Source: Minisyncoccia bacterium (GTDB lineage Bacteria; Patescibacteriota; Minisyncoccia; Moranbacterales; GCA-2747515). From it: DNA of 64,000 nt. Of the stretch, positions 26,089-28,162 are shown piece by piece; the first letter of the stretch is position 1, and the number at the start of each line of letters is the position of its first letter. The stretch spans positions 63,345 through 127,344 of the forward strand of contig JBGSQF010000013.1 in NCBI GenBank assembly GCA_041738235.1, read 5' to 3'. The notes beneath the pieces were generated by a model. The model was not told where the DNA came from. It saw nothing but the letters and a program-made list of their open reading frames with translations, and did not search any database. Made by a program: the position numbers and the translations under genes.

Positions 26089-26310
26089 ATGATTATAAAG
26101 GTAGAGGTCAAAACGGGTCGATCCAAAGAAAGCGTGCAAGAGATAGAAAAGGGGCGATATGTTGTTTCATTGATTGTTCGTCCTATTGAGGGAAAGGCAA
26201 ATAAAGCTCTTCAAGGGCTTATTGCTCAGTATTTTGGGGTAGCTCCTTCTTGTGTGGTGATCAATAAGGGAAAGAACAGCCGAGTAAAGAGTATCGAAGT
26301 GACTTTCTAA
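26089..26310 (+). CDS. DUF167/YggU-family protein
   Basis: 73 aa, IKVEVKTGRSKESV......VSLIVRPIEGKANKAL...FGVAPSCVVINKGKNSRVK matches UPF0235. Confidence 0.7.
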   Translation: MIIKVEVKTGRSKESVQEIEKGRYVVSLIVRPIEGKANKALQGLIAQYFGVAPSCVVINKGKNSRVKSIEVTF

Positions 26311-26391
26311 AGACTTGCCTTTTATCTTAAAATAGTATATTCTCTTAAAAGAACGGAGCTTCGTGTTTTTTGTTTTTATTGCCAGATGTAT

Positions 26392-26465
26392 AGCGGGGTA
26401 GAGCAGCCAGGCAGCTCGTCGGGCTCATAACCCGGAGGTCGTGGGTTCGAATCCCACCCCCGCAA
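26392..26465 (+). tRNA. Initiator tRNA-Met (CAU)
   Basis: Cloverleaf AGCGGGG-TA-GAGC...GCTC; anticodon arm with three G-C pairs (GGG-CTCATAA-CCC); A1:A72 mismatch; T-arm GTGGG-TTCGAAT-CCCAC; very close to E. coli tRNA-fMet; no encoded CCA. Confidence 0.8.
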
Positions 26466-26512
26466 CAAAATGTGACAATTAAAGAGGTTGGGTGAAGAAC
26501 CTGTTTGTTCTT

Positions 26513-26586
26513 GGCAGGGTAGCTCAGTTGGTTAGAGCGTGGGACTCATAAGCCCGAGGTCGAGAGTTCGAATCTCTCCCCTGCTA
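26513..26586 (+). tRNA. tRNA with CAU anticodon (elongator Met or lysidine-modified Ile2)
   Basis: GGCAGGG-TA-GCTC-AGTTGGTTA-GAGC, anticodon loop CTCATAA, T-arm GAGAG-TTCGAAT-CTCTC, acceptor CCCTGCT; one A31:G39 mismatch in the anticodon stem. Confidence 0.75.
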
Positions 26587-26609
26587 CAAAGAGGAGAGAG
26601 GATATAATA

Positions 26610-27026
26610 GTGATTTACGACTCAAGTATGTCTTTTGACAAGGGACCAAGAAAAGAAACGGTAAGTGGACTGTATGTACACGGTCTCGCCGACAGTAGAA
26701 AGTCTGTGGGTGCTGAGGATCGGGAAGGAAAAAAGCTTTCCGTAACGGAGCAGGTACTGGCCTCATTTAGAAATAATGAGCTCCCATCATTGGATGGAGC
26801 CCGGGTTGCTGTTGATCACATGTTGGCTCATTCCGGTATTAGTGAGAAGGACTTTTTGGAGTTTGCTACGACACATCAGGAGTCGATGAAAGAGTTTATA
26901 GAACAAGCATTACGGATCATGAGTCGAATTGATGGAGGAAGAGAGAAGGATTCCAAGGTGTTATTTGAACGATTGAGAAATACGATACCCTCCTCTGAGG
27001 AAGTTGATTATAGAAAGGCAGCCTAG
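26610..27026 (+). CDS. Hypothetical soluble protein
   Basis: GTG start preceded by a strong GAGGAGAGAGGA RBS; no recognisable motif. Confidence 0.5.
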   Translation: MIYDSSMSFDKGPRKETVSGLYVHGLADSRKSVGAEDREGKKLSVTEQVLASFRNNELPSLDGARVAVDHMLAHSGISEKDFLEFATTHQESMKEFIEQALRIMSRIDGGREKDSKVLFERLRNTIPSSEEVDYRKAA

Positions 27027-27048
27027 AATAGAAGTGTTTTGAAAATTT

Positions 27049-27125
27049 GGACCGGTAGCTCAGTTGGTTACCCGCCCGTACCGAACGGACTCGGTACGTT
27101 CGGGCGGGGATCATCGCCCTGTCAC
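27049..27125 (+). pseudogene. Degenerate partial copy of tRNA-Asp (5' half to the anticodon loop) with a 39-nt hairpin replacing part of the D-arm
   Basis: GGACCGGTAGCTCAGTTGGTTA is identical to positions 1-22 of the tRNA-Asp at 27379. A perfect hairpin follows at 27071-27109 (CCCGCCCG...CGGGCGGG). Then ATCGCCCTGTCAC matches the anticodon-stem 5' strand plus loop, and the copy ends there. Confidence 0.6.
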
Positions 27126-27136
27126 TGTATGGTTCT

Positions 27137-27373
27137 ATGTACACCGTTTATGTTTTGCAAGATGATTCTGGAAAGTTATACAAAGGTATGACGAGTGATC
27201 TGAACAGAAGATTTGCAGAACATAGCCGGGGTAAAACGAAGACAACGAGCAAAATGAAAGATATTTTCGTTGTCTACACTGAAGAATACGTTACTCGGCT
27301 GGAAGCGCGCGCAAGAGAGAAATACCTCAAGACAGCTGCAGGTAGAAGATTTTTGAAGAAAAAGTTGCAATAA
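27137..27373 (+). CDS. GIY-YIG nuclease family protein (small UPF0213/YhbQ-like)
   Basis: YTVYVLQDDSGKLYKGMTSDLNRRFAEH is the GIY-YIG catalytic motif (GIY...YxG...R...E...H/N). The ORF fills the 253-bp gap between the partial and intact tRNA-Asp copies. Confidence 0.8.
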   Translation: MYTVYVLQDDSGKLYKGMTSDLNRRFAEHSRGKTKTTSKMKDIFVVYTEEYVTRLEARAREKYLKTAAGRRFLKKKLQ

Positions 27374-27378
27374 TATTT

Positions 27379-27452
27379 GGACCGGTAGCTCAGTTGGTTA
27401 GAGCATCGCCCTGTCACGGCGAGGGTCGCGAGTTCGAGTCTCGTCCGGTCCG
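27379..27452 (+). tRNA. tRNA-Asp (GUC)
   Basis: GGACCGG-TA-GCTC-AGTTGGTTA-GAGC-A-TCGCC-CTGTCAC-GGCGA-GGGTC-GCGAG-TTCGAGT-CTCGT-CCGGTCC-G; canonical cloverleaf; no encoded CCA. Confidence 0.9.
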
Positions 27453-27462
27453 CAGAAATCTA

Positions 27463-27495
27463 AAAACGGAGTCCTTAGGGATTCCGTTTTTAGTT
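27463..27495 (+). terminator. Hairpin plus T-run after tRNA-Asp
   Basis: AAAACGGAGTCC-TTA-GGGATTCCGTTTTT (one G-U pair). Confidence 0.5.
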
Positions 27496-27499
27496 TCCT

Positions 27500-27720
27500 T
27501 GAGGAGACGGAACGAGACGAGAACAGGGAAAGGAATCGGGGGAAAACGGGAGTTTTTCCGTTGCGGAAAGTAGGACGAAGTCCGCTCCAAACCGAGGGGT
27601 TTTTAAGGAGCGAAGCGACGTGAGATCGTCTCGTCTGTCTTACCGAAGTTTTACGTAGGCAGGTCCGGTCCGCTAAACGCGAAAGCAGTACCAAGAGGTG
27701 CTATTTTTGGATTTTGAACA
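27500..27720 (+). ncRNA. Candidate structured ncRNA (possible SRP-RNA-like element)
   Basis: About 220 nt with no ORF. It shows 9-bp long-range complementarity (ACGAGACGA at 27512-27520 with TCGTCTCGT at 27626-27634), a duplicated GTCCGCT(C/A)AAAC motif, and CAGGUCCGG...GAAAGCAG resembling SRP RNA domain IV. Confidence 0.25.
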
Positions 27721-27760
27721 GCGAGTAGAATCTTTTTTTGCTTTATGATACTATTAAGAT

Positions 27761-28162
27761 ATGGAAAATTATGCTGAGTATCAACAGCTCATAAGACCGT
27801 CTTGGGCACCGACTTCTTGGCTGTTTGGTCCCGTTTGGACCGTACTGTATGCTGTAATTGCGGTTACTTTTGGATATGTTGCCTATCTTTTTATTAAAAA
27901 ACAGATTCCCTTTATAGTCCTTTTTCCCTTCGCTCTCAACCTTTTGTTTAATGTTGCATTCACTCCAATACAATTTGGTTTGAAGAATAATTACTTGGCC
28001 ACCATTGATATCGTGTTTGTCCTTATTACATTGATTTGGGCGCTTACCTCGATCCATCCCCATGCTCGTTGGGTGTCGTATGCCAATATTCCCTATCTTC
28101 TTTGGGTTGTGTTTGCGACAGGGCTCCAAATCACAATAACCTTTATGAACTGGAAGCTGTAG
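27761..28162 (+). CDS. tspO: TspO/MBR (translocator protein) family membrane protein
   Basis: Trp-rich five-TM pattern PSWAPTSWLFGPVWTVLYAVIA...NLLFNVAFTPIQFG...ANIPYLLWVVFATGL characteristic of TspO. Confidence 0.8.
   Translation: MENYAEYQQLIRPSWAPTSWLFGPVWTVLYAVIAVTFGYVAYLFIKKQIPFIVLFPFALNLLFNVAFTPIQFGLKNNYLATIDIVFVLITLIWALTSIHPHARWVSYANIPYLLWVVFATGLQITITFMNWKL

What the first reader, a model, noticed from the sequence alone, without database searches (positions are those of the whole stretch)
27043..27454. tRNA-Asp 5'-half duplication with hairpin insertion, flanking a GIY-YIG nuclease gene
Two copies of the tRNA-Asp 5' half are present, 27049-27125 and 27379-27417, each preceded by the same ATTTGG. 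The upstream copy stops precisely in the anticodon loop (after CTGTCAC). Its D-arm is replaced by a perfect 39-nt hairpin at 27071-27109. The 253 bp between the copies is filled by a 78-aa GIY-YIG ORF that starts 12 nt after the partial copy and ends 5 nt before the intact tRNA. This is the footprint expected if a minimal selfish GIY-YIG (homing-endonuclease-like) gene inserted by recombination in the tRNA anticodon-loop region, carrying its own tRNA 5' half and displacing the original one. It is not a simple group I intron: no 3' exon follows directly, and the ORF leaves no room for a ribozyme core.
Basis: seen in the sequence. Interest (0 to 1): 0.7.

Follow-up and report, generated by a model that had tools for sequence, protein, structure and literature searches.

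The report
Small nuclease gene lodged in tRNA-Asp
A tiny nuclease gene sits between a broken extra copy of the front half of tRNA-Asp and the working tRNA-Asp gene, and this same three-part layout, with a conserved DNA hairpin in the broken copy, recurs next to many different tRNA genes across ultra-small (Patescibacteria) bacteria and was not described in any paper I could search.

Summary
The sequence facts hold with one correction. The tRNA-Asp 5' part (positions 1-39) is duplicated at 27049-27125. The copy is interrupted, not replaced, by a 38-nt bulged palindrome (27071-27108) inserted in the D-loop. It is followed by a 78-aa GIY-YIG ORF and the intact tRNA-Asp.

This is not a one-off footprint. 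Of 80 related loci (549 relatives matched among GTDB species-representative genomes), 72 have the ORF abutting a same-strand tRNA of about 12 amino-acid identities. About 78% carry a 5' partial copy of that same tRNA upstream. 74 of 80 have the same hairpin family within 500 nt, a 212-fold enrichment.

The ORF is under strong purifying selection (dN/dS 0.05-0.15) and is inherited syntenically. Even so, decayed copies, tandem arrays, and a present/decayed/absent series for a paralogous ORF at tRNA-Met show that such ORFs are gained and lost.

The protein is a single-domain nuclease with a UPF0213/Slx1-like fold. It most resembles the recently described Ssn nucleases, which pair with hairpin repeats, but here it sits inside a tRNA operon.

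Verdict: a new variant of a known kind. The mechanism is unresolved.

The parts
26392..26466 (+). tRNA-Met(CAT), first gene of the tRNA cluster
   Evidence: ARAGORN; Rfam 59.9 bits. The Met-Met-[module]-Asp order is shared with many relatives.
26513..26587 (+). tRNA-Met(CAT), second gene. The 46-nt spacer before it (26467-26512) is an empty site: relatives L203/L204 carry a second GIY-YIG ORF there.
26610..27026 (+). 138-aa hypothetical ORF, lineage-specific, lying between tRNA-Met and the partial tRNA-Asp
   Evidence: No Pfam or NCBIfam hit. Only 2 homologues in 5.8 billion proteins (77% and 62% identity). They served as anchors to find relatives L203 and L204.
27049..27070 (+). Partial tRNA-Asp copy, positions 1-22 (acceptor 5' strand, D-stem 5' strand, D-loop)
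   Evidence: 22/22 identical to 27379-27400.
27071..27108 (.). 38-nt GC-rich bulged palindrome (CCCGCCCG...CGTT-CGGGCGGG), one copy of a conserved repeat family, inserted in the D-loop of the partial copy
   Evidence: Only true copy in the 64-kb window. DNA fold -14.5 kcal/mol, z=-3.4. Found within 500 nt of the ORF in 74/80 relatives, 212-fold enriched. Both orientations occur.
27109..27125 (+). Partial tRNA-Asp copy, positions 23-39 (D-stem 3' strand with one mismatch, anticodon-stem 5' strand, anticodon loop)
   Evidence: 16/17 identical to 27401-27417.
27137..27373 (+). 78-aa single-domain GIY-YIG nuclease gene (UPF0213/Slx1-like fold)
   Evidence: Pfam PF01541. Y5, Y15, R25, H29 and E61 are invariant in 27 homologues. 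AlphaFold2 pLDDT 94.9. Nearest solved structures are UPF0213 (1ZG2, 1YWL) and Slx1 (6SEH, TM 0.69). dN/dS 0.05-0.15.
27379..27453 (+). Intact tRNA-Asp(GTC), the only tRNA-Asp in the window
   Evidence: ARAGORN; Rfam 70.1 bits, full length.
27460..27503 (+). Terminator-like hairpin with T-run directly after the tRNA. No such site lies between 27026 and 27379.
27501..27626 (+). About 126 nt of non-coding 'X' element, also found after other tRNA genes in relatives
   Evidence: 82% identical over 68 nt to the sequence after tRNA-Met in L203. Further matches after tRNAs in L014 and L024, and matches in L082 and L016 whose position was not examined.
27627..27673 (+). Degenerate 3' fragment of tRNA-Asp: a T-stem-like CGTCTCGTC, a 27-nt insert, then GTCCGGTCCGC, which is an exact copy of the tRNA's last 11 nt
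   Evidence: (repeat D7). Clearer 17-18-nt 3'-end copies occur in the same place in L007, L022 and L074.

Best explanation
The window holds one copy of a module that is widespread in Patescibacteria.

Layout: a minimal single-domain GIY-YIG nuclease gene is lodged inside a tRNA transcription unit, between a truncated 5' copy of the tRNA (upstream) and the intact tRNA (downstream). The truncated copy carries one or more copies of a conserved GC-rich bulged palindrome.

Most likely history and working:
1. Inferred: an ancestor of the ORF entered the tRNA-Asp gene region in an event that duplicated the tRNA's 5' part, so that one intact tRNA survived.
2. Shown: the module has since been inherited vertically at this site under strong purifying selection. 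Related ORFs occupy the 5' side of at least a dozen other tRNA identities and are sometimes lost or decayed.
3. Inferred: the ORF has no terminator before the tRNA and is transcribed by read-through with it. In most relatives its stop codon is the tRNA's own U8-A9-G10.
4. The partial copy stays identical to its own tRNA (shown). This is probably by gene conversion (inferred).
5. Inferred, by analogy with the Ssn family of small GIY-YIG nucleases that bind and cut single-stranded DNA next to their own hairpin repeats: the palindrome is the nuclease's cognate hairpin. It can land only in the redundant tRNA copy because insertion in the working copy would be lethal. By interrupting the direct repeat it may also protect the ORF from being deleted by recombination between the two copies.
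For: Family-wide architecture:
- 549 relatives were found among GTDB species-representative genomes.
- In 72 of the best 80 loci the ORF abuts or overlaps the 5' end of a same-strand tRNA: Asp, Thr, Ala, Val, Ile, Phe, Arg, His, Lys, Pro, Met.
- The distance from the conserved C-terminal motif to tRNA +1 is modally 17 nt in 7 tRNA types.

Partial copy:
- The median alignment score of the ORF's upstream 140 nt to its own tRNA is 19.7, against 6.7 for 50 control tRNAs. 78% against 12% reach a score of 15.
- 54 of 61 partial copies start at position 1 and end at positions 19-47, mode 39. The ATG follows 0-14 nt later in most.
- The acceptor strand is identical to the locus's own tRNA in 52/54 loci, but to other loci's tRNA of the same type in only 1-25% of comparisons.

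Hairpin link:
- 74/80 loci have a hairpin within 500 nt of the ORF: 1.26 per kb near the ORF against 0.006 per kb elsewhere.
- Insertion sites cluster at the D-stem edges: after positions 9, 12-14 and 20-22.
- Multiple and nested copies occur and both orientations are found.
- ORF-less partial copies found without reference to hairpins (L009, L032, L026) carry none. ORF loci lacking a partial copy (L011, L044, L046, L079) still have a hairpin nearby.

Selection and inheritance: dN/dS is 0.05-0.15. Flanks are syntenic in L029/L048 and L004/L012/L013. The partial copy and hairpin start in L203 are identical to the window's.

Gain and loss:
- ORF remnants occur in L024 and L009.
- L156 has a tandem [partial copy - ORF] x2 array.
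- L204 has an empty tRNA-Asp site.
- The paralogous ORF at tRNA-Met is present in L203, decayed in L204 and absent in the window.

Nuclease type: single domain, invariant catalytic residues, UPF0213 and Slx1 folds. The Ssn precedent is PMC11893778.
Against: - No experiment shows nuclease activity, hairpin binding or transcription.
- The hairpins do not match the published Ssn repeat consensus (0 hits in the window, 2 in the 80 loci). Assignment to the Ssn CDD family (cd10448) could not be tested.
- A hairpin-first metagenome scan found most hairpins (about 79 of 88) far from any GIY-YIG gene or tRNA. So the pairing could instead reflect a very hot insertion target.
- How a matched tRNA 5' duplication arises at each new tRNA type is not explained.
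- The partial copy's 3' end is variable (19-47). This fits erosion of a longer duplication as well as it fits a defined insertion site.
- Strong purifying selection with vertical descent would also fit a host-beneficial gene rather than a selfish one.
Confidence: 0.6

Rival explanations
1. Classical free-standing homing-endonuclease cassette. The nuclease makes a double-strand break in an ORF-less tRNA gene. Repair copies in [ORF + element-borne tRNA 5' half] and displaces the native 5' half. The hairpins are unrelated later colonists of the dead copy.
For: - The ORF sits at about a dozen tRNA identities.
- Decayed and absent states exist.
- T4 SegB, a GIY-YIG enzyme, recognises a conserved tRNA-gene motif and drives homing (PMC2330249).
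- Fungal mitochondrial mobile ORFs carry a duplicated gene end (PMC3630166).
- Hairpins also occur far from any such ORF.
Against: - There is no DNA-binding domain in 78 aa.
- The intact tRNA, the presumed target, remains adjacent and uncut.
- The partial copy always matches the local tRNA, so an element-borne half would have to be re-made for each tRNA type.
- Synteny and dN/dS near 0.1 argue for long residence, not recent invasion.
- Hairpins track the ORF rather than partial copies as such.
- No relatives were found in viral contigs.
Confidence: 0.2
2. A single insertion of an element that carries a whole replacement tRNA. The resident tRNA-Asp gene was split at about position 39/40 by [ORF + complete tRNA-Asp + terminator + X]. 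The fragments at 27049-27125 and about 27627-27673 are then the two halves of the old gene, and no duplication step is needed.
For: - The upstream fragment ends at position 39. The downstream remnant aligns from about position 41 to 75.
- L007 has a 1-19 fragment and a 40-75 fragment. L022, L074 and L017 also have 3' fragments after the tRNA.
Against: - The downstream similarity in the window is weak apart from the 11-mer (score 13.4 against a control maximum of 11.6).
- The X element with a 3'-end duplication occurs on its own after tRNA-Met in L203, and X-like sequence follows tRNAs in L014 and L024. So it is a separate insertion.
- Most loci show no 3' fragment.
- In L019 the upstream and downstream fragments overlap (positions 23-34 in both).
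- The ORF-to-tRNA junction is the same in unrelated tRNA types.
Confidence: 0.1
3. The upstream fragment is functional RNA. It could be part of a split or permuted tRNA, or a leader that pairs with the tRNA's 3' half to control processing or ORF translation.
For: - The fragment ends at the canonical intron position region of the anticodon loop.
- Its acceptor strand co-varies with the tRNA in 52/54 loci.
- It lies in the same transcription unit.
Against: - A complete, high-scoring tRNA follows (70 bits).
- In many relatives the fragment is cut back to 19-30 nt.
- The number, position and orientation of the hairpins vary.
- The fold of the fragment is not exceptional (z=-1.68).
- Gene conversion explains the co-variation.
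Confidence: 0.05

Closest known systems
Ssn family of single-domain GIY-YIG nucleases with their hairpin repeats (NTS/SRM), Chenal et al. 2025, PMC11893778
   Same: - A small (<100 aa) single-domain GIY-YIG protein with no DNA-binding domain.
- The gene is flanked by 20-50-nt hairpin-forming inverted repeats that also occur elsewhere in the genome.
- The spacing of catalytic residues is similar (SsnA Y6/Y17/E64; here Y5/Y15/E61).
   Different: - The hairpin sequence is unrelated to the published SRM consensus.
- CDD family membership (cd10448) was not testable. The nearest solved structures are UPF0213.
- The gene is embedded in a tRNA operon with a partial tRNA duplication. tRNA is not mentioned in that paper.
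- The hairpins lie mostly on the 5' side only (68 of 80 loci; both sides in 10 of 80).
- The host phylum is Patescibacteria.
REP elements and their RAYT transposases, and IS200/IS605 (from my own knowledge; also discussed in PMC11893778)
   Same: A single vertically inherited nuclease gene next to its own palindromic repeat, with further copies of the repeat dispersed in the genome. Insertion sites relate to DNA hairpins.
   Different: The enzyme here is a hydrolytic GIY-YIG nuclease, not an HUH tyrosine transposase. No strand-transfer chemistry is expected. tRNA genes are the landing site.
Phage T4 SegB, a free-standing GIY-YIG homing endonuclease in a tRNA gene cluster (PMC2330249)
   Same: A GIY-YIG gene lying among tRNA genes. 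The enzyme recognises a conserved tRNA-gene motif and cuts many tRNA genes.
   Different: SegB is a larger, multi-domain, phage-encoded enzyme that cuts near tRNA 3' ends. It creates no partial tRNA duplication and has no hairpin repeat. No viral relatives of the ORF here were found.
Fungal mitochondrial mobile ORFs with a duplicated gene end (Allomyces atp6; Glomus atp6, atp9, cox2, nad3; PMC3630166)
   Same: An endonuclease ORF inserted in an essential gene together with a replacement copy of the displaced gene part. The displaced part stays behind as a fragment.
   Different: Those cases involve protein genes, the 3' end and a foreign (diverged) replacement copy. Here it is a tRNA gene, the 5' part, and the two copies are kept nearly identical.
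Integrative elements in tRNA genes (att-site duplication of a tRNA part; from my own knowledge)
   Same: Direct repeats of part of a tRNA flank the inserted DNA, and the tRNA stays intact.
   Different: Those elements duplicate the 3' part and encode an integrase. Here the 5' part is duplicated, the insert is about 250 bp, and no recombinase gene lies among the flanking ORFs that were scanned.
Rickettsia palindromic elements (from my own knowledge)
   Same: Short palindromic repeats inserted in frame in housekeeping proteins, and also in RNA genes and intergenic DNA.
   Different: The family, size (28-60 nt) and phylum differ. Here the elements are always read as PAR...(R)SGG.

Membership tests
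GIY-YIG nuclease superfamily | Match to the GIY-YIG catalytic domain profile above the curated cut-off | tested here: met
   PF01541: 43.2 bits against a cut-off of 22.6, E=4.9e-11, residues 1-69.
GIY-YIG nuclease superfamily | Conserved catalytic residues (two Tyr, Arg, His, Glu) and the three-strand/helix fold | tested here: met
   Y5, Y15, R25, H29 and E61 are invariant in 27 sequences. The AlphaFold2 model has pLDDT 94.9 with a beta-beta-alpha-beta-alpha-alpha order. It matches Slx1 (6SEH, TM 0.69, rmsd 2.3) and the UvrC N-terminal domain.
UPF0213 / YhbQ-like small GIY-YIG proteins | Sequence similarity to solved UPF0213 proteins | tested here: met
   Profile against PDB: 1YWL E=1.6e-9 and 1ZG2 E=2.4e-7. 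These are also the top Foldseek hits.
Ssn nucleases (cd10448) | Single-domain GIY-YIG protein shorter than 150 aa | tested here: met
   78 aa, one domain.
Ssn nucleases (cd10448) | Assignment to CDD family cd10448, or BLAST similarity to N. meningitidis SsnA | not testable with these tools
   No CDD library and no SsnA sequence were available. The paper's supplements are not held.
Ssn nucleases (cd10448) | Gene flanked by 20-50-nt hairpin-forming repeats that recur in the genome | tested here: met
   74/80 loci have a hairpin within 500 nt, with 212-fold enrichment. Both flanks carry one in only 10/80. Dispersed copies were seen in metagenome contigs. Copy number per genome was not measured.
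Ssn nucleases (cd10448) | Flanking repeat fits the published SRM consensus HGTCWY...RNCYNB | tested here: not met
   0 matches in window 26901-27800, and 2 matches in all 80 loci.
Ssn nucleases (cd10448) | Site-specific cleavage of single-stranded DNA next to the hairpin | not testable with these tools
   Needs a biochemical assay.
Free-standing homing endonuclease gene | Presence/absence polymorphism at the same site in close relatives | tested here: inconclusive
   For this ORF at tRNA-Asp, all syntenic relatives found carry it. The one empty tRNA-Asp (L204) lies in a rearranged context. For the 38%-identical paralogue at tRNA-Met the series is present (L203), decayed (L204) and absent (window).
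Free-standing homing endonuclease gene | Separate DNA-binding domain giving a long recognition site | tested here: not met
   The whole 78-aa protein is the catalytic domain.
Free-standing homing endonuclease gene | The target site is destroyed or altered in the ORF-bearing allele | tested here: not met
   A complete tRNA-Asp, identical to the partial copy over 38 of 39 bases, lies next to the ORF. Only the partial copy is interrupted, by the hairpin.
Group I intron in a tRNA gene | Ribozyme core detectable, with a 3' exon directly following | tested here: not met
   No intron family hit in 26300-27800 at E<=10. The ORF fills the interval. A full tRNA follows rather than a 3' exon.

The most novel reading that the evidence does not exclude
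The small GIY-YIG nuclease and the CCCGCCCG...CGGGCGGG palindrome form an autonomous/non-autonomous pair of mobile DNA. It would be a hydrolytic-nuclease counterpart of IS200/IS605 with REP/RAYT. It would act on folded single-stranded DNA and use the stem-loop edges of tRNA-gene cloverleaves as landing sites. In doing so it would generate the partial tRNA duplications. Its hairpins would also be tolerated in frame inside essential proteins such as GyrA, RecG and UvrD.
Probability: 0.25. Interest if true: 0.85.

Novelty: new variant of a known kind. Interest (0 to 1): 0.66.

Why it matters
- It gives a genomic context, and so a testable function, for a very common family of tiny GIY-YIG proteins (UPF0213-like) that has had solved structures since 2005 and no known role.
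- It extends the newly described pairing of small GIY-YIG nucleases with hairpin repeats to Patescibacteria. It also adds a link to tRNA genes that was not reported.
- It shows that tRNA genes in these reduced genomes act as nesting sites for at least three kinds of small inserts: the ORFs, the palindromes and a non-coding 'X' element of about 120 nt. Each comes with a partial tRNA duplication that keeps one tRNA intact.
- In most relatives the stop codon lies inside the tRNA. RNase P processing should then leave a stop-less mRNA, which is a simple, testable coupling of tRNA maturation to expression of the nuclease.
- For annotation: these partial tRNA copies and in-frame palindromes can mislead tRNA finders and gene callers.

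Tried and rejected
- Group I intron or another known RNA: Rfam at gathering score finds only the three tRNAs. At E<=10 it adds only a sub-threshold 'ylbH leader' match in the X region (31.7 bits against 50). This was treated as chance.
- MAFFT alignment of the two copies failed to open the 38-nt gap. It was redone with a gap-tolerant local alignment.
- Strain-level presence/absence: exact-protein look-ups of the ORF and its neighbours returned only the same strain (L001, L002) or nothing.
- Phage origin: no relatives were found in IMG/VR.
- Target-site consensus for the palindrome: flanks are dominated by tRNA context in the ORF loci and show no strong motif in metagenome copies. No target-site duplication was seen.
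- Ssn repeat consensus: not matched.
- A strict fixed-length target duplication model: rejected as the sole explanation. The partial copies end anywhere from position 19 to 47. L069 and L035 keep a full tRNA upstream with the damaged copy downstream.
- ORF phylogeny as a clean guide to tRNA identity: only partly informative. The nearest neighbour has the same tRNA type in 34/67 cases against 17% by chance. Within-type identity (65%) barely exceeds between-type identity (62%).
- Literature: seven full-text searches found no description of the tRNA-linked module or of the palindrome family in Patescibacteria. Subscription-only papers were not searched.
Full report
**1. What is in the window**

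ARAGORN and Rfam find three tRNA genes: tRNA-Met at 26392-26466, tRNA-Met at 26513-26587 and tRNA-Asp(GTC) at 27379-27453.

A gap-tolerant alignment shows a partial copy of tRNA-Asp upstream:
- 27049-27070 is identical to tRNA-Asp positions 1-22.
- 27109-27125 matches positions 23-39 with one mismatch.
- The homology stops at the last base of the anticodon loop.

Between the two blocks lies a 38-nt insert (27071-27108). Both D-stem strands are still there, so the D-arm is interrupted, not replaced. The insert is a bulged palindrome, not a perfect one. It has an 8-bp outer stem CCCGCCCG/CGGGCGGG, a 4-nt bulge and an inner stem. As DNA it folds at -14.5 kcal/mol, z=-3.4.

The 78-aa ORF 27137-27373 is a GIY-YIG domain. 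There is no terminator-like site between 27026 and the tRNA. One follows the tRNA directly, at 27460-27503.

No intron or other known RNA family is detectable.

The sequence is reproduced in two independent assemblies.

**2. The arrangement is a family trait**

All close homologues of the ORF (60-75% identity, 77-81 aa) come from Patescibacteria. A scan of one genome per GTDB species found 549 relatives, and I fetched the best 80 loci.

- In 72 of them the ORF abuts or overlaps the 5' end of a same-strand tRNA gene. The tRNA is Asp (20), Thr, Ala, Val, Ile, Phe, Arg, His, Lys, Pro or Met.
- The distance from the conserved C-terminal motif to tRNA +1 is most often 17 nt, in seven tRNA types. 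The stop codon is then the tRNA's own T8-A9-G10. The window copy has 29 nt and its own TAA, in the same reading frame.
- Upstream of the ORF, most loci hold a partial 5' copy of that same tRNA. The median local alignment score is 19.7, against 6.7 for 50 control tRNAs in the same loci.
- Of 61 clear partial copies, 54 begin exactly at tRNA position 1. They end between positions 19 and 47 (mode 39, as in the window). The ATG usually follows within 0-14 nt.
- The acceptor strand of the partial copy equals that of its own tRNA in 52 of 54 loci. It equals that of other genomes' tRNA of the same type in only 1-25% of comparisons.

**3. The hairpin is a repeat family tied to the ORF**

Nearly every partial copy is interrupted by one to three inserts with the same outer stem and bulge. 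The common forms are CCCGCCCG-AACG-TACCG..CGGTA-CGGGCGGG and CCCGCCCG-AACG-ACTGA..TCAGT-CGGGCGGG, and their reverse complements.

- They sit after tRNA positions 9, 12-14 or 20-22, which are the edges of the D-stem strands.
- They can be nested (L021, L067, L080).
- They occur in both orientations (48 against 31).
- Orthologous loci differ in hairpin site and type, so the hairpins turn over faster than the module.
- 74 of 80 loci have a hairpin within 500 nt of the ORF. The density is 1.26 per kb there, against 0.006 per kb in the remaining 336 kb. The 64-kb window has just this one true copy.
- Partial tRNA copies that lack an ORF and were found without reference to hairpins (L009-Met, L032-Met, L026-Pro) have none.
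- ORF loci lacking a partial copy still have a hairpin nearby.

A scan of metagenome contigs for the hairpin itself gave a different picture. About 79 of 88 copies lie far from any such ORF or tRNA. They sit in the centres of other palindromes, in simple repeats, and in frame inside GyrA, RecG-like and UvrD-like proteins. In proteins they are always read as PAR...(R)SGG, and their lengths are multiples of three. So the palindrome is a mobile repeat in its own right.

**4. Age, selection, gain and loss**

- Pairs of loci at the same tRNA have syntenic flanks of 70-81% identity and modules of 77-86% identity.
- dN/dS of the ORF is 0.05-0.15, at dS 0.3-1.
- A relative whose neighbouring protein is 77% identical (L203) has the identical partial copy and hairpin start.

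So at tRNA-Asp the module is old and vertically inherited.

Turnover is nevertheless visible:
- L024 and L009 keep a partial copy plus only the last codons of the ORF.
- L156 has two tandem [partial copy - ORF] units before tRNA-Arg.
- L069 and L035 keep the full tRNA upstream and a damaged, hairpin-bearing copy downstream.
- L204 has a tRNA-Asp with nothing attached.
- A 38%-identical paralogous ORF directly upstream of the second tRNA-Met is intact in L203, degenerate in L204 and absent from the window's 46-nt spacer.
- ORF similarity follows tRNA identity only partly (34/67 nearest neighbours against 17% by chance). This implies repeated moves between tRNA genes, some of them to a neighbour in the same cluster (L024, L016).

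**5. What the protein is**

Y5, Y15, R25, H29 and E61 are invariant. The AlphaFold2 model is confident (pLDDT 94.9). The nearest solved proteins are two UPF0213 structures of unknown function, followed by the nuclease domain of Slx1, a structure-specific enzyme. There is no room for a DNA-binding domain.

The closest described system is the Ssn family (PMC11893778). These are 94-aa single-domain GIY-YIG enzymes that bind and cut single-stranded DNA next to their own hairpin repeats. The repeats flank the gene and are dispersed in the genome.

The present hairpins do not fit that family's repeat consensus, and CDD membership could not be tested. I therefore claim 'works like', not 'is a member'.

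**6. Explanation, and what is shown versus inferred**

Shown:
- the architecture and its breadth;
- the link between hairpin and ORF;
- purifying selection and synteny;
- concerted identity of the partial copy with its own tRNA;
- decay and absence states.

Inferred:
- The ORF entered tRNA genes in events that duplicated the 5' part.
- It is expressed by read-through with the tRNA.
- Gene conversion keeps the copies alike.
- The palindrome is the nuclease's cognate hairpin, and it persists only in the redundant copy.
- Interrupting the 39-bp direct repeat into 22 + 17 bp lowers loss of the ORF by repeat recombination.

The step that creates a matched duplication at each new tRNA is not explained. 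Variable ends (19-47), together with L069 and L035, fit erosion of a longer tRNA-ORF-tRNA structure at least as well as a fixed insertion point.

**7. Rivals**

- A classical homing cassette remains possible (0.2). It is weakened by the missing DNA-binding domain, the intact target next door, and the age of the locus.
- A single insertion carrying a whole tRNA would neatly make the 5' fragment and the 3' remnant at 27627-27673 the two halves of the old gene. However, the X element with its own 3' duplication occurs alone after tRNA-Met in L203, and X-like sequence follows tRNAs in L014 and L024. Most loci also lack a 3' fragment (0.1).
- A functional split tRNA or leader is unlikely (0.05).

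**8. Novelty**

Seven full-text searches found no description of this tRNA-linked module or of the palindrome family. The recent survey of tRNA introns in Patescibacteria does not mention them.

I rate it a new variant of a known kind: a small GIY-YIG nuclease with a hairpin repeat, and a mobile ORF with a duplicated gene part. It is of above-average interest, and the mechanism is open.

Noticed in passing
window 27501-27673; L203 592-745; L014 2287-2348; L024 1041-1087; L082 1621-1665; L016 3989-4027: A conserved non-coding 'X' element of about 110-126 nt (core GAGAACAGGGAAAGG..TCGGG.AAAACGG.AGTTTT.CCGT ... GAAGCGACG.TGAGAT). It follows tRNA genes (Asp in the window and L024; Met in L203 and L014) and in the window and L203 is itself followed by a repeat of the tRNA's 3' end (11 nt exact in the window; about 22-30 nt including flank in L203). 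L082 and L016 carry matches whose position relative to tRNAs was not examined. It looks like a second kind of small insert at tRNA genes, on the 3' side. The only Rfam hit is a sub-threshold 'ylbH leader' match (31.7 bits against 50).
   Followed up: partly
L124 (GyrA, two sites), L094 (RecG-like), L152 and L111 (UvrD/PcrA-like), L160, L131: The same palindrome family is inserted in frame in housekeeping proteins. It is always translated as PAR...(R)SGG, and its lengths are 30, 33 or 36 nt. The 32-nt form is found only in non-coding DNA. It also sits in the exact centre of other palindromes (L138, L143, L155, L161). This resembles the Rickettsia palindromic elements.
   Followed up: partly
window 26467-26512 versus L203 54-514 and L204 31-435: Relatives carry a second, 38%-identical small GIY-YIG ORF directly upstream of the second tRNA-Met. 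It is intact in L203 and frameshifted in L204. It has different upstream repeats (CTCGTGGCACGCACA...) and no partial tRNA copy. The window has only a 46-nt spacer there.
   Followed up: partly
L003-L082, junction of ORF and tRNA: In about 60% of relatives the ORF's stop codon is the tRNA's own T8-A9-G10 (or a TAG in the D-loop). RNase P cleavage at +1 would then leave an mRNA without a stop codon. In the window an earlier TAA (27371-27373) ends the ORF 5 nt before the tRNA, in the same frame.
   Followed up: partly
L156 7700-8800 (minus strand); L055/L056 downstream of tRNA-Val; L032 2230-2490: There are tandem arrays built on tRNA-part repeats: two [partial tRNA-Arg + hairpin + ORF] units of 317 nt; two [80-nt element + tRNA-Val positions 42-75] units; and two partial tRNA-Met copies before the intact gene. 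This suggests unequal recombination between the repeats.
   Followed up: no
window 26610-27026: A 138-aa ORF with no family match and only two homologues in 5.8 billion proteins. It sits where most relatives have about 90-160 nt between tRNA-Met and the partial tRNA-Asp. It may be a further lineage-specific insertion in the tRNA cluster.
   Followed up: partly
L072 3392-3500; L079 3405-3600; L035 2779-2870: Full-length or nearly full-length extra tRNA copies (Ile, Val, Arg) carry the palindrome in the D-loop and lie next to an intact copy. Whether such copies are expressed or processed is unknown.
   Followed up: no
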